This document shows positions 21,296 to 25,446 of a stretch of 64,000 nt of DNA, one piece after another. The notes under the pieces are model-generated. The model did no database searches. It was not told where the DNA came from and was given only the letters and a program-made list of their open reading frames with translations. The stretch comes from an uncultured Thermoplasmata archaeon (GTDB lineage Archaea; Thermoplasmatota; Thermoplasmata; UBA10834): NCBI GenBank assembly GCA_963719945.1, contig CAVRDX010000004.1, forward strand, positions 224,001-288,000, in the 5' to 3' direction. Numbering within the stretch: the stretch's first letter is position 1; each line of letters begins with the position of its first letter. The translations under genes and the position numbers were made by a program.

Positions 21296-21310
21296 GAAAG
21301 TCATTAAATA
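21296..21310 (+). promoter_or_regulatory. BRE/TATA promoter for tRNA-Lys (and probably the rpo operon)
   Basis: GAAAG-TCATTAAATA about 55 nt upstream of the tRNA. Confidence 0.6.
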
Positions 21311-21363
21311 CTTGAACGAACTACACGGCCTGCTAACGCAGCCTAGGGTATCTACGCCGCCCA

Positions 21364-21507
21364 GGGCCCGTAGCTCAGCTAGGTAGGAATCTCATGCATT
21401 CTCGATGTTATGGTTTCCCTAGAAAGAGCATCTGCCTTTTAAGCAGGTGGCCCGGGGTTCGAATGACTAAGCCATACAGACTAGTCTCGGAAATCCCCGC
21501 GGGCCCG
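21364..21507 (+). tRNA. tRNA-Lys(UUU) with two introns (21385-21424 and 21464-21493)
   Basis: Acceptor GGGCCCG/CGGGCCC, D-stem GCTC/GAGC, anticodon arm TCTGC-CT-TTT-AA-GCAGG, T-arm CGGGG-TTCGAA^T-CCCCG. Both inserts are flanked by BHB-like motifs. CCA is not encoded. Confidence 0.92.
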
Positions 21508-21593
21508 CCGGGCGTCGAATGCGGACCGATGGAGAAACGGAACGAATCCCACGGTTTCCATGTGGAATACCCTTCGCCAGTATGGTGATTTGG

Positions 21594-21851
21594 ATGGCCG
21601 GAGAATTTAACGTCTTGGAGCATGAGCTCGTACCCGAGCATCATCTTCTGTCGGAGAAGGAGGCCGAGAAGGTCCTTAAGCAGCTGAAGCTTACGAAGGA
21701 CCAGCTTCCGAAGACAAGGATAACTGACCCATGCATCCGCACGCTCGATGCGATTGCTGGGCCAGTCGAAGAGGGAATGGTAGTCAAGATCGTTAGGCGC
21801 AGCTCAACGAGCGGCGTGTCGATCTGTTATAGACTTGTAGTGCGGGGGTGA
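21594..21851 (+). CDS. rpoH: RNA polymerase subunit H (Rpo5)
   Basis: [15 protein letters not shown]...QLPK...DP...YRLVV. Confidence 0.96.
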
Positions 21852-21855
21852 ACCC

Positions 21856-24800
21856 TTGAGGGAACTTGTTGAAACCTATTTCAGGGAAAGAAGTATAGTC
21901 AACCATCACACAGCGTCGTACAATGATTTCCTGCCGACGATAGACCATCCGAACAGCAGGATGCAGACGATCGTGGATAACGTCCGCGCATCTCCCGACG
22001 AGGCCGACAGGGGGATAATCCGGCTCGACCCAGACCGAACCGAGGGCAAGATCATCGAGATCAGGATCGGTCGCAGAAGGGACGAGAAGACTGGACTCGT
22101 TGACCCGAGTGCCAGGCCGACGGTATCTGTCGGAAGGCCCGTGATCAAGGAGGCAAACGGTGCCACCCACGACCTCTATCCGATGGAGGCTAGGTTGAGG
22201 AACCTCAACTACTCCGCACCGATATATCTCGAATTCACAATCGTAGAGGACGGGATCGAACGTGAGCCAGAGAAGGTCCACATCGGCGACCTGCCCGTCA
22301 TGATACAGTCCAAGAAGTGCAACCTGCACAAGGACAACATCGACATGGATCGCGAGCCGACCGACGAGGACGTCCGCGCGTTCCACGTTAAGATGGGCGA
22401 AGACCTGTGCGACCCAGGCGGCTATTTCATCATAGGTGGGACTGAGAGGGCGCTGATATCCCTCGAGGACCTCGCGCCGAACAGGGTCATGGTCGAGATG
22501 AACGAGCGCTACGGCACCAGCCTGCACGTGGCGAAGGTCTTCTCGCAGAAGGAAGGTTACAGGGCGCTCACGCTGATGGAGAAGAAGAAGGACGGTATAC
22601 TGGTAGTATCAGTACCCGCTGCCTCTGGTCAGATCCCGCTCATAGTCCTCATGAAGTCTCTCGGGATGGAGAGCGATGAGGAGATCTACAAATCGATAGT
22701 GTCCGACCCACAGATGGCGAACATCGTGTACGCCAACATCGAGGAGTGTCAGAACAAGAAGCTGTATCCTCCGAACGGCATCTACACGACCGAGGACGCG
22801 ATACTGTTCCTCGAGAGGAAGTTCGCGACTGGCCAGGCGAAGGAATACAGGGCGAAGAAGGTCGAGAGCATAATCGACCGGTCCCTGCTGCCGCACCTTG
22901 GTGACACCGCAGATGCGAGGATGAAGAAGTCCATATTCCTCGGCCGTGTCGCAAGGACCATACTCGAACTCGAGCTCGGCAAGCGTAAGGAGGACGACAA
23001 GGACCACTACGCCAACAAGAGGCTGAAGCTCGCAGGCGATCTGATGGAGGACCTCTATAGGGTCGCTTTCACCAACCTCATCAAGGATCTGAAGTACCAG
23101 CTGGAGAGAGGGTACACGAGGAAGAAGGGCCTGAGGATCTCCTCGGCCATAAGACCGGATCTTCTCACCCACAGGCTGCTCCACGCATTCGCGACCGGTA
23201 ACTGGGTCGGCGGAAGGGCAGGTGTATCACAATTGCTGGACAGGACGTCCAACATGAGCGCGCTGTCCCACCTGAGGAGGGTGACATCGCCGCTCACCAG
23301 GAGCCAGCCTCACTTCGAGGCGAGAGACCTGCACCCCACTCAATGGGGCAGATTGTGTCCGAACGAGACTCCTGAGGGTCAGAATTGCGGTCTGGTCAAG
23401 AACTGCGCTCTCATCGTCGATGTGAGCGAGGGAACGGATGACAAGGAGGTCATCTGGCTCTTGCGCGACCTTGGCGTGAAGGAGGTCAGCGAGCAGCAGA
23501 CGACCGAGACCCGTGTCTACGTCAACGGTGACCTGATAGGTCTCCATGACAAGCCCAAGGAGCTGGTCGAGGAGATACGCCAGAGGCGCAGGTCTGGCCT
23601 GTTGTCGCACGAGGTCAACATACGTTTCGACAACAACATGAATGAGATCATTATCAACTGCGACGAGGGCAGGCTGAGGAGGCCTCTGCTCGTCGTCCGC
23701 CACGGCAAGACACTCCTGACGCGGAGGCACATCGAGGACATGCGTTCGCATAAGGCGAAGTGGTCCGACCTCATACGCGAGGGAGTCGTCGAGTGGATCG
23801 ATGCGGAAGAGGAAGAGGATTCGTATATCGCCGTGTTCGCACACGAGACGCCCCAGAAGTGTGAGCACTGCGGCAAGTTCCTGTCCGCACTCGATGTGGA
23901 GTGGCGCAACCCAGGAGAGGAGGGCAAGACCGTCCTGGAGTGCAAGACCTGCGGCGGCACGATGCAGATCGAATCGCAACTGAAGGACAACCACACTCAC
24001 CTGGAGATCGACCCGATGGTCATCCTGGGAGTATGTTCAGGTATGGTTCCATACCCAGAGCACAACTCCAGTCCGAGAGTCACCATGGGTGCGGGTATGG
24101 CCAAGCAGTCTCTGGGCCTGAGTTCGTCCAACTACCGCATAAGGCCGGACACCAGGAGCCACGTTATGCACTATCCGCAGCGGTCGTTGACTACCACGAA
24201 GACGATGGAGTTCGTCAATTTCATGCACAGACCCGCGGGACAGAACTTCGTTGTCGCGATAATGTCGTATCAGGGTTACAACATGGAAGATGCGATCGTC
24301 ATGAACAGATCCTCCGTCGAGAGGGGACTGGGACGCTCGACCTTCATGAGGACCTACAGGGCGGAGGAGCGCAGGTATCCAGGAGGTCAGGAGGACCACT
24401 TCGAGATACCGAGCCCAGATGTAAGGGGCGCCAGAGCCGATCTGTCCTACAGCAACCTAGGCGAGGACGGCCTCATAGGCCCGGAGACCAGGGTCGAGGG
24501 CGGGGACGTGCTCATAGGCAAGACATCGCCTCCGAGGTTCCTGGAGGAGGAAGCTGATTTCCTCACACCTCAGAAGAGGAGGGAGACATCCGTCACGGTA
24601 CGTCCAGGCGAGAGCGGCTGGGTCGACTCCGTCATGCTGACGGAGTCCGAGAACGGCTCGAGGCTCGTCAAGGTCAAGGTCAGAGATGAGAGGATCCCCG
24701 AGCTTGGGGACAAGTTCGCTTCCAGACACGGGCAGAAGGGTGTCGTCGGATTGCTGGTGCACCAGGAGGACATGCCGTTCACTGGTGATGGATTGATACC

Positions 24801-25442
24801 AGACTTGATCATCAACCCACACGCCATCCCATCCCGTATGACCGTCGCCCACGTGCTGGAGATGGTCGGCGGCAAGGTCGGCTCGATGGAAGGCCGGTTC
24901 ATGGATGGTACCGGGTTCAGCGGCGAGACGGAAGAGGCGATCAGGGACGCACTCGTAAGGAACGGATTCAAGCACAACGGCAACGAGGTCATGTATGACG
25001 GTGTGACTGGTCGTAAGATCGAGGCGGAGATATTCATCGGCGTGATCTACTACCAGAAGCTGCACCACATGGTGTCTGGGAAATTGCATGTCAGAAGCAG
25101 AGGGCCGGTCCAGATACTCACCAGACAGCCGACGGAGGGTCGCTCGAGACAGGGTGGTCTGAGGTTCGGTGAGATGGAGAGGGATTGTCTGATCGGTCAC
25201 GGGGCCGCGATGGTCATCAAGGACAGGCTCTTGGATGAATCGGACGGTACGCTGCAATACGTCTGTGGCAACTCGAGCTGCGGGCACATCGCAATCCTTG
25301 ATAGGAGAGGCACACTGAGGTGCCCGGTCTGTGGCAATAACTCGAAGATATACCAGGTCCAGACATCGTACGCATTCAAGCTGTTGCTCGATGAGCTGCT
25401 GTCGCTTGGTGTCGCCATGCGTCTTCAACTGGAGGACTTGAA

Positions 25443-25446
<4 letters not shown>
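21856..25446 (+). CDS. rpoB: RNA polymerase subunit B (Rpo2, unsplit)
   Basis: [43 protein letters not shown]. Confidence 0.98.

What the first reader, a model, noticed from the sequence alone, without database searches (positions are those of the whole stretch)
21364..21507. tRNA-Lys(UUU) with two non-canonical introns (D-loop 20/21 and T-loop 59/60) and none at 37/38
Seen directly: intron 1 (21385-21424, 40 nt) has central helix CTAG/CTAG with bulges GT^A and AA^A. Intron 2 (21464-21493, 30 nt) has central helix TTCG/CGGA with bulges AA^T and AA^T. Cutting after the second bulge base, the standard rule, rebuilds GCTCAGCTAGGT-AGAGC and TTCGAA-T, a normal 74-nt cloverleaf. Both motifs are relaxed, with one flank an internal loop. 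Established: multi-intron, non-canonical tRNAs are typical of Thermoproteales and some DPANN, which have broad-specificity (alpha-beta)2 or epsilon2 endonucleases, while Thermoplasma-type alpha2 enzymes prefer strict BHB. Inference: this lineage has a broadened or acquired splicing endonuclease and possibly mobile tRNA introns. Standard annotation could miss this gene.
Basis: partly seen in the sequence, partly recalled or inferred. Interest (0 to 1): 0.82.

Follow-up and report, generated by a model that had tools for sequence, protein, structure and literature searches.

The report
Twice-interrupted lysine tRNA gene, Thermoplasmata
This is a real and apparently the only lysine tRNA(UUU) gene of an uncultured Thermoplasmata archaeon, split by two short protein-spliced introns in unusual places (D-loop and T-loop); the kind of gene is known, but its only splicing enzyme is of the type described as too strict for such introns.

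Summary
Observation confirmed at the stated coordinates. Removing 21385-21424 (40 nt) and 21464-21493 (30 nt) gives a perfect 74-nt tRNA-Lys(UUU) cloverleaf. ARAGORN and Rfam find nothing unless both inserts are removed. Each insert has a 4-bp central helix, one clean 3-nt bulge and one splice site in a small internal loop, so both BHB motifs are relaxed.

The gene is kept in all four genera of the family and in the sister family. The D-loop intron occurs in 98 of 401 sampled genomes of the class, including Methanomassiliicoccales and Ca. Sysuiplasma. Relatives carry 0, 1, 2 or 3 introns. Helices covary strongly (0 of 500 shuffles reach the score).

No other Lys(UUU) gene was found and AAA codons are used. 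At least four more tRNA genes here have introns outside 37/38.

The inference of an acquired or visibly broadened endonuclease is not supported. There is one two-repeat alpha'2-type EndA without the CSL/ASL/L3 loops, plus RtcB. These two introns are old and fixed in position, not visibly mobile.

This is a new member of a known kind. Earlier notes of this scan describe the same pattern in other Thermoplasmata genomes. tRNAscan-SE 2.0 Table S7 already lists a few such introns in Methanomassiliicoccales.

The parts
21302..21310 (+). TATA-like box (CATTAAATA), about 54-62 nt upstream of the tRNA 5' end
   Evidence: Read. Conserved as CATTAAATA, CATTATATA, TATTAAATA or TTTTATATA in 17 relatives. 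Promoter function is inferred.
21328..21363 (+). Conserved 5' leader with a small hairpin (CUGC-UAAC-GCAG); its 3' end pairs with the trailer
   Evidence: Conserved across family f1 and sister family f2. Leader-trailer duplexes of 5-9 bp, -8.4 to -21.7 kcal/mol, in every relative tested.
21364..21384 (+). Exon 1: acceptor 5' strand, U8-A9, D-stem 5' strand, D-loop nucleotides 14-20
   Evidence: Invariant or covarying with exon 3 in 60 diverse genes.
21385..21424 (+). Intron 1 (40 nt, between 20 and 21, D-loop), relaxed BHB
   Evidence: The central helix is kept (the C16-G pair in 79/87 unique introns, the others in 87/87). The first three inner pairs hold in 87/87, 87/87 and 84/87 with GC<->AU and AU<->CG swaps. 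All 4 inner-helix pairs show double-sided changes.
21425..21463 (+). Exon 2: A21, D-stem 3' strand, anticodon arm (loop CUUUUAA, anticodon UUU), variable loop, T-stem 5' strand, T-loop nucleotides 54-59
   Evidence: Anticodon-stem and T-stem pairs covary.
21464..21493 (+). Intron 2 (30 nt, between 59 and 60, T-loop), relaxed BHB
   Evidence: Central helix UUCG/CGRA: the C56-G and G57-C pairs are kept in 70/70 unique introns, T55 pairs (A or G) in 70/70 and T54 in 69/70. All 5 inner-helix pairs show double-sided changes.
21494..21507 (+). Exon 3: U60, T-stem 3' strand, acceptor 3' strand, discriminator G73; CCA is not encoded (next bases are CCG)
21510..21514 (+). Trailer segment GGGCG, complementary to leader CGCCC (21358-21362)
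   Evidence: The pairing changes in step between relatives, for example CGCGCCGCC with GGCGGCG.
21519..21851 (+). rpoH (RNA polymerase subunit H/Rpb5), starting 12 nt after the tRNA and followed by rpoB (21856-25446): genomic context
   Evidence: Pfam PF01191 at 1.5e-25, and the Rpb2 domains.

Best explanation
Window 21364-21507 is the functional, apparently single-copy gene for tRNA-Lys(UUU). It is transcribed as a precursor of about 180 nt from a TATA-type promoter.

The precursor folds so that D-loop nucleotides 16-18 pair with the 3' end of intron 1, and T-loop nucleotides 54-57 pair with the 3' end of intron 2. This forms two bulge-helix-bulge-like motifs. The genome's only splicing endonuclease, a two-repeat alpha'2-type homodimer, cuts after the second nucleotide at each of the four sites. 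RtcB then joins the three exons into a 74-nt tRNA, and CCA is added afterwards.

Shown here: the anatomy, the restoration of the cloverleaf, conservation and covariation, the single EndA gene and the RtcB gene. Inferred: transcription, cleavage by EndA at these exact bonds, the order of intron removal, and ligation.
For: - The spliced product is a perfect cloverleaf with anticodon UUU.
- An intron-free orthologue (L032) reads the same across both junctions as the predicted product: D-loop AGCTAGGTA and T-loop TTCGAAT.
- The two-intron gene is 90-99% identical in 4 genera of the family and 80-82% in the sister family.
- The D-loop intron pattern occurs in 98/401 class genomes in at least 14 families, with 0 hits for the reversed-pattern control. 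One of these genomes, G116, is unpublished; no claim depends on it.
- Of 130 parsed genes, 115 have both introns, 6 have only the D-loop one, and 6-9 have three.
- Covariation on 60 diverse genes: 95.3% of cells paired against 87.0% shuffled; score 0.246 against 0.098 (0/500); slid controls 0.086 or less. All 9 pairs of the two intron inner helices change on both sides. T-stem and acceptor pairs split by the introns also covary.
- Own-arm against swapped-arm pairing is 6.4 against 4.8 of 8 for intron 1, and 6.7 against 4.5 for intron 2.
- No other Lys(UUU) gene was found. AAA makes up 3216 of 14207 Lys codons in long ORFs.
- There is one EndA with catalytic Y290, H298 and K329, and RtcB scores 605 bits.
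- A conserved TATA-like box lies upstream.
Against: - There are no RNA data, so splicing is inferred.
- Both motifs depart from the strict hBHBh' form. The literature says alpha'2 enzymes cleave relaxed motifs poorly (PMC5829648, PMC6379350, PMC3488258).
- In the thermodynamic fold, slipped registers (5-bp helix plus 2-nt bulge) at the intron 1 5' site and the intron 2 5' site are about 2.5 kcal/mol better than the BHB register.
- The assembly is only 87% complete, so a second Lys(UUU) gene on missing DNA cannot be excluded for this genome itself.
Confidence: 0.92

Rival explanations
1. It is a decaying pseudogene: a former tRNA-Lys gene disrupted by two insertions, no longer expressed or needed.
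For: General tRNA finders do not recognise it. The assembly is incomplete at 87%.
Against: Exons are invariant or change only by compensatory pairs across many families, while intron loops drift. No other Lys(UUU) gene was found here or in a 98%-complete single-contig relative. AAA codons are in use. A conserved promoter-like box and leader lie upstream.
Confidence: 0.02
2. The introns are removed, but not by EndA alone. The loop-less alpha'2 enzyme cuts only the two clean bulges. The two relaxed sites need a helper (a protein cofactor or another nuclease), or recognition of the mature tRNA body, or removal in a fixed order that remodels the second motif.
For: A. fulgidus alpha'2 and loop-less M. 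kandleri EndA cut mostly at the clean bulge of an HBh' D-loop intron and leave intermediates (PMC5829648). A. fulgidus EndA barely cuts a relaxed T-loop intron (PMC3488258). It can cut a BHL motif at 37/38 only in full-length pre-tRNA (PMC6379350). This EndA has no CSL, ASL or L3 loop.
Against: No second EndA-like gene is present. No candidate helper was identified. The relaxed geometry is conserved class-wide, which suggests it is a good enough substrate as it stands.
Confidence: 0.25
3. The inserts are not removed. They stay as D-loop and T-loop expansions in a functional or regulatory RNA.
For: None beyond the absence of RNA data.
Against: Inserts of 30-40 nt at G18-G19/T-loop would destroy the tRNA elbow. 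Orthologues exist with 0, 1, 2 or 3 inserts and identical exon junctions. Insert length and sequence vary freely (20-45 nt), and only the BHB-forming parts are kept.
Confidence: 0.01

Closest known systems
Methanopyrus kandleri pre-tRNA-Glu(UUC) (Kaneta et al. 2018, PMC5829648)
   Same: A euryarchaeal tRNA with two introns, one a relaxed HBh' motif in the D-loop next to A21. The host EndA lacks every known specificity loop. The fused M. kandleri enzyme (PDB 5X89) is the best solved match of this genome's EndA (3.8e-36 over the full length).
   Different: The second M. kandleri intron is canonical (37/38), while here it is in the T-loop. M. kandleri EndA is made from two genes as (alpha-beta)2, while here a single two-repeat polypeptide. 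There it is one organism; here the arrangement is conserved across much of a class.
ARMAN-2 (Ca. Micrarchaeum) pre-tRNA-Cys(GCA) with a relaxed T-loop intron (PMC3239211, PMC3488258)
   Same: An intron in the T-loop with a relaxed BHB that uses the conserved T-loop sequence as one strand of the central helix.
   Different: ARMAN-2 has a three-unit epsilon2 EndA whose ASL loop (K161) is needed for that cut. Here there is no insertion at that loop.
Multi-intron tRNA genes of Thermoproteales and Thaumarchaeota (tRNAscan-SE 2.0 census, PMC8450103 Table S7)
   Same: Two or three BHB introns per tRNA gene at non-canonical positions. Such genes are hidden from simple tRNA finders.
   Different: Those lineages have (alpha-beta)2 EndA with the CSL/L1 loop and many more such introns. 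I recall, without checking here, that their introns show signs of transposition. Here the introns are few, old and fixed in position.
Methanomassiliicoccales rows of tRNAscan-SE 2.0 Table S7 (3 genomes: 13 canonical and 6 non-canonical introns, one two-intron tRNA)
   Same: The same class. Many MAGs titled Methanomassiliicoccales or Methanomassiliicoccaceae carry this very Lys(UUU) arrangement, so the tabulated two-intron gene may be this one (inference).
   Different: The table gives counts only. I found no description or discussion in the searchable literature.

Membership tests
Functional archaeal elongator tRNA-Lys(UUU) | Cloverleaf with 7-bp acceptor, 4-bp D-stem, 5-bp anticodon stem, 5-bp T-stem, 7-nt anticodon loop with U33 and anticodon UUU | tested here: met
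   ARAGORN on the joined exons.
Functional archaeal elongator tRNA-Lys(UUU) | Conserved tertiary nucleotides (U8, A14, G18-G19, A21, G53-C61, U54-U55-C56, A58) | tested here: met
   Read from the spliced sequence. These columns are invariant in 60 genes.
Functional archaeal elongator tRNA-Lys(UUU) | Under purifying selection, with compensatory changes in stems | tested here: met
   Acceptor pairs 5-68 and 6-67, anticodon-stem pairs 27-43 and 31-39, and T-stem pair 49-65 change on both sides.
Functional archaeal elongator tRNA-Lys(UUU) | Mature spliced, aminoacylated RNA exists | not testable with these tools
   No transcript data are available.
Strict hBHBh' archaeal intron | Two 3-nt bulges on opposite strands, separated by exactly 4 bp and each flanked by a further helix with nothing unpaired opposite | tested here: not met
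   The intron 1 3' site lies in a 2x3 internal loop and the intron 2 5' site in a 3x1 loop. The same geometry is seen class-wide for intron 1.
Relaxed BHB (hBH / HBh') archaeal intron at a non-canonical position | 4-bp central helix, at least one canonical 3-nt bulge, second splice site in a loop at the symmetric distance; removal restores the tRNA | tested here: met
Relaxed BHB (hBH / HBh') archaeal intron at a non-canonical position | Cleavage by EndA at these bonds and ligation by RtcB | not testable with these tools
   Only the genes are shown.
alpha'2-type (homodimeric, two-repeat) EndA | One polypeptide with two tandem endonuclease repeats | tested here: met
   PF02778 twice and PF01974 twice in one 351-aa ORF.
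alpha'2-type (homodimeric, two-repeat) EndA | Catalytic Tyr-His-Lys triad only in the C-terminal repeat | tested here: met
   Y290, H298 and K329 align with the M. jannaschii triad and are invariant. The N-terminal repeat has Phe106 in place of the Tyr (read from the alignment).
alpha'2-type (homodimeric, two-repeat) EndA | Forms a homodimer | not tested
   Not examined. Inferred from the architecture.
Broad-specificity EndA, (alpha-beta)2 or epsilon2 | Separate alpha and beta genes, or a three-unit epsilon protomer | tested here: not met
   A single gene with two full repeats.
Broad-specificity EndA, (alpha-beta)2 or epsilon2 | Inserted Lys-bearing loop (CSL/L1 or ASL/L2) between the 'YG' and 'LxLSL' segments of the catalytic unit, or L3 around the catalytic His | tested here: not met
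   The loop FGKMIGA has the same length as in M. jannaschii and A. fulgidus. A. pernix alpha has 10 extra residues there. The Tyr-His spacing is 7 residues, against 9 in M. jannaschii and 10 in A. fulgidus (loop positions from PMC3488258).

The most novel reading that the evidence does not exclude
The plain two-repeat (alpha'2) EndA of Thermoplasmata, which lacks all three loops held to confer broad specificity, nevertheless cleaves relaxed BHB motifs in the D-loop and T-loop efficiently. If so, broad specificity has a third, so far undescribed structural basis. One candidate is the invariant Lys211 in the short FGK loop; another is recognition of the tRNA body. The accepted rule that only (alpha-beta)2 and epsilon2 enzymes handle such introns would then fail for a whole euryarchaeal class.
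Probability: 0.45. Interest if true: 0.6.

Novelty: new member of a known kind. Interest (0 to 1): 0.42.

Why it matters
Practically, essential tRNA genes in this large, mostly uncultured class are missed or mis-typed by common annotation tools. That distorts tRNA-complement and completeness estimates. In this genome Lys-UUU, Arg-CCG and Arg-UCU were missed and Thr-CGT was mis-typed.

Conceptually, the published picture is that disrupted tRNA genes co-evolved with EndA types that carry inserted specificity loops. Here is a class-wide, long-conserved set of relaxed, non-canonical introns served by a single loop-less alpha'2 enzyme. That gives a clean natural test case, one enzyme with one or two substrates, for what really sets EndA substrate range.

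Tried and rejected
- ARAGORN with its intron option and Rfam tRNA at E up to 1 do not see the gene. I therefore wrote a cloverleaf finder that tolerates inserts. It recovered this gene plus Arg(CCG), Arg(UCU) and Thr(CGT).
- Looser motif scans for the still-missing Asp(GUC), Leu(UAA) and initiator Met genes gave only noise. They may lie in the missing 13% of the assembly or be disrupted in ways my scan cannot see.
- I looked for a link between EndA form and the introns. The long ~350-aa form occurs both in lineages with the Lys introns (f1, f30) and without them (f6, f25). The short Thermoplasma-like form (~290-300 aa) was seen in f14 and f19, where the D-loop intron was not found. With only 6 genomes this is not a test.
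- I considered whether the leader-trailer helix forms a third BHB. It does not: it has 1 nt opposite 3 nt directly at the acceptor end, with no 4-bp spacing.
- Leader CCUAGGG could pair with the 3' end of intron 1, but it varies (CCUCGGG) without a matching intron change, so I rejected that pairing.
- By eye I saw no C/D-box motifs in either intron; this was not tested with a tool.
- Literature searches for a description of these introns in Thermoplasmata or Methanomassiliicoccales found only the count table of PMC8450103.

Full report
**What is there.** Exon 1 (21 nt), exon 2 (39 nt) and exon 3 (14 nt) join into a 74-nt RNA. ARAGORN folds it as tRNA-Lys(UUU) with a flawless cloverleaf, D-loop AGCUAGGUA and T-loop UUCGAAU. 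ARAGORN (with or without its intron option) and Rfam's tRNA model see nothing in the genomic sequence, or when only one insert is taken out.

**Splice motifs.**

| Feature | Intron 1 (21385-21424, 40 nt) | Intron 2 (21464-21493, 30 nt) |
|---|---|---|
| Central helix | exon CUAG (16-18) with intron 3' CUAG | exon UUCG (54-57) with intron 3' CGGA |
| Clean 3-nt bulge | 5' site G19-U20\|A, then inner helix GGAA/UUCC | 3' site A-A\|U60, next to the T-stem |
| Relaxed site | 3' site A-A\|A21 faces unpaired A14-G15 (2x3 loop closed by the D-stem) | 5' site A58-A59\|U faces one unpaired U (3x1 loop), then inner helix GACUA/UAGUC |

All pairs were checked by script. An unconstrained fold gives -56.9 kcal/mol (z = -3.2) and recovers all cloverleaf stems and both central helices. 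At the intron 1 5' site and the intron 2 5' site, each beside that intron's inner helix, it prefers a slipped register (5 bp plus a 2-nt bulge) over the BHB register, which scores -54.4. So both motifs are relaxed in the sense used in the literature (hBH / HBh'; PMC5829648).

**Is it real?** Comparative evidence is decisive.
- The two-intron gene is 90-99% identical across the four genera of the family and 80-82% in the sister family.
- Other families of the class carry the same gene with no intron (L032, which reads the same across both junctions as the predicted product), with only the D-loop intron (L029), with both (L030), or with three: 20/21, 37/38 and 59/60 (L031).
- A pattern for the D-loop intron matches 98 of 401 sampled class genomes in at least 14 families. 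The reversed-pattern control gives no hit. One of those genomes, G116, is unpublished; no claim depends on it.
- In the named collection the hits are Thermoplasmata, Thermoplasmatota, Methanomassiliicoccales or Methanomassiliicoccaceae MAGs, Ca. Sysuiplasma and Ca. Saliniplasma.
- Of 130 parsed genes, 115 have both non-canonical introns, 6 have only the first, and 6-9 have three.
- On 60 diverse genes, 95.3% of pair cells are standard pairs against 87.0% shuffled and at most 54% slid. The covariation score is 0.246 against 0.098, reached by 0 of 500 shuffles.
- All nine pairs of the two inner intron helices change on both sides. Exon stems that the introns split (T-stem, acceptor) covary too.
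- Intron loops and lengths (20-45 nt) drift freely.

**Is it needed?** No other Lys(UUU) gene was found by ARAGORN, Rfam, BLAST with the mature sequence, or my insert-tolerant scan. A 98%-complete single-contig relative shows only the interrupted form. AAA is 23% of Lys codons in long ORFs. A conserved TATA-like box and a conserved leader precede the gene.

**Genome context of the phenomenon.** My scan found three tRNA genes that the finders missed and one that ARAGORN mis-typed:
- Arg(CCG), with a strict BHB intron at 59/60.
- Arg(UCU), with a 37/38 intron and a 59/60 intron.
- Thr(CGT), with a D-loop intron. ARAGORN calls this one Gly-gcc.

Gln(CUG) has a 21-nt intron at 38/39 or 39/40. That makes six introns outside 37/38 among 44 tRNA genes found, beside about twelve in the anticodon loop whose exact positions I did not check one by one. 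The Thr(CGT) D-loop intron is kept full-length in 18/18 family genomes and 3/3 sister-family genomes. The Arg(CCG) T-loop intron varies more. Asp, Leu(UAA) and initiator Met genes were not located; the assembly is 87% complete.

**The enzyme.**
- The genome has one EndA gene (G000:C4:182534-183589, outside the window). It is 351 aa with two full repeats, each PF02778 plus PF01974. RtcB is also present.
- The best solved match is the fused M. kandleri enzyme 5X89, aligned over the full length.
- The catalytic C-terminal repeat aligns with M. jannaschii EndA with only two small gaps in the query (1 and 2 residues) and no insertion. The triad is Y290, H298, K329.
- The CSL and ASL specificity loops sit between 'YG' and 'LxLSL' (position from PMC3488258). 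At that point this protein has FGKMIGA, as short as in the narrow enzymes, while A. pernix alpha has ten more residues.
- Tyr and His are only 7 residues apart, so there is no L3-type loop.
- The same long form, with an invariant Lys211, occurs in class members with and without the Lys introns. A short Thermoplasma-like form occurs in two other families.
- Nothing in the architecture marks this enzyme as broadened or acquired.

**Comparison with what is known.** Reviews state that only (alpha-beta)2 and epsilon2 EndAs, by virtue of inserted Lys-bearing loops, remove relaxed or non-canonical introns efficiently. They also state that 'Cluster II' Euryarchaeota have strict alpha'2 enzymes (PMC5829648, PMC6379350).
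- The nearest precedent is M. kandleri pre-tRNA-Glu(UUC), with an HBh' D-loop intron and a loop-less enzyme that cuts it slowly.
- T-loop relaxed introns are known from ARAGORN-independent work on ARMAN-2 (PMC3488258).
- The tRNAscan-SE 2.0 census lists 25 non-canonical introns in 144 euryarchaeal genomes, 7 two-intron tRNAs and no three-intron tRNAs. The three Methanomassiliicoccales genomes hold 6 non-canonical introns and one two-intron tRNA (PMC8450103 Table S7).

So the kind is known and is thinly on record for this class, but I found no description of it. Earlier notes of this scan report the same Lys(UUU) arrangement, T-loop introns and the plain EndA in other Thermoplasmata genomes. 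My results agree with them and were obtained independently on this genome.

**Verdict.** This is a real, conserved, very probably essential tRNA gene with two relaxed BHB introns: a new member of a known kind. The idea of an acquired or visibly modified endonuclease, and of mobility for these two introns, is not supported. The open and testable point is how a loop-less alpha'2 EndA copes with the relaxed sites.

Noticed in passing
G000:C1:495517-495615 (+) = L158:101-199: Hidden tRNA-Arg(CCG) with a 26-nt intron at 59/60 in a strict hBHBh' motif (UUCG/CGAA central helix, bulges AA|A and AU|U). ARAGORN missed it, and Rfam gave only a 21-bit partial hit.
   Followed up: partly
G000:C3:13645-13764 (-) = L159: Hidden tRNA-Arg(UCU) with two introns: 24 nt at 37/38 and 22 nt at 59/60. 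Its T-loop intron resembles that of Arg(CCG) at both ends (AG.CG...CG.CCGAAAU). Whether that reflects shared descent or copying was not tested.
   Followed up: no
G000:C4:108105-108204 (-) = L160: tRNA-Thr(CGT) with a D-loop intron of about 27 nt (central helix GCGG/CCGC, clean 5' bulge). ARAGORN mis-calls it Gly(gcc) with an 8-nt intron. It is conserved full-length in 18/18 family genomes and 3/3 sister-family genomes.
   Followed up: partly
G000:C3:110214-110306 (+) = L161: tRNA-Gln(CUG) carries a 21-nt intron one or two nucleotides 3' of the canonical site (38/39 or 39/40). ARAGORN reports it as a 95-nt intron-less gene.
   Followed up: no
L031 (G040:C6), L049, L050, L112, L145: Three-intron tRNA-Lys(UUU) genes (20/21, 37/38 and 59/60) in other Thermoplasmata families. 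The tRNAscan-SE 2.0 census lists no three-intron tRNA in Euryarchaeota.
   Followed up: partly
window 21328-21363 and 21508-21518: The 5' leader of the tRNA is conserved across two families, holds a small hairpin, and its last bases pair with the 3' trailer. The pairing covaries between relatives and extends the acceptor stem. Function is unknown; it may guide end processing.
   Followed up: partly
window 21507-21519: rpoH starts 12 nt after the tRNA 3' end, followed by rpoB. The tRNA may be co-transcribed with the RNA polymerase operon and cut out of its leader.
   Followed up: no
window 21387-21403 (5' half of intron 1): Within the family the 5' half of intron 1 (AAUCUCAUGCAUU) is nearly invariant while the 3' half of the loop drifts. 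This is more conservation than the BHB needs, and it is unexplained.
   Followed up: no
G000 whole genome: No genes for tRNA-Asp(GUC), tRNA-Leu(UAA) or initiator tRNA-Met were located by any method used. They lie either in the missing 13% of the assembly or are disrupted in ways not covered here.
   Followed up: partly
G039 and G050 (L155-L157): Two families of the class have a short (292-299 aa), divergent, Thermoplasma-like EndA instead of the ~350-aa full two-repeat form. The D-loop Lys intron was not found in the 8 and 43 genomes sampled from those families.
   Followed up: no
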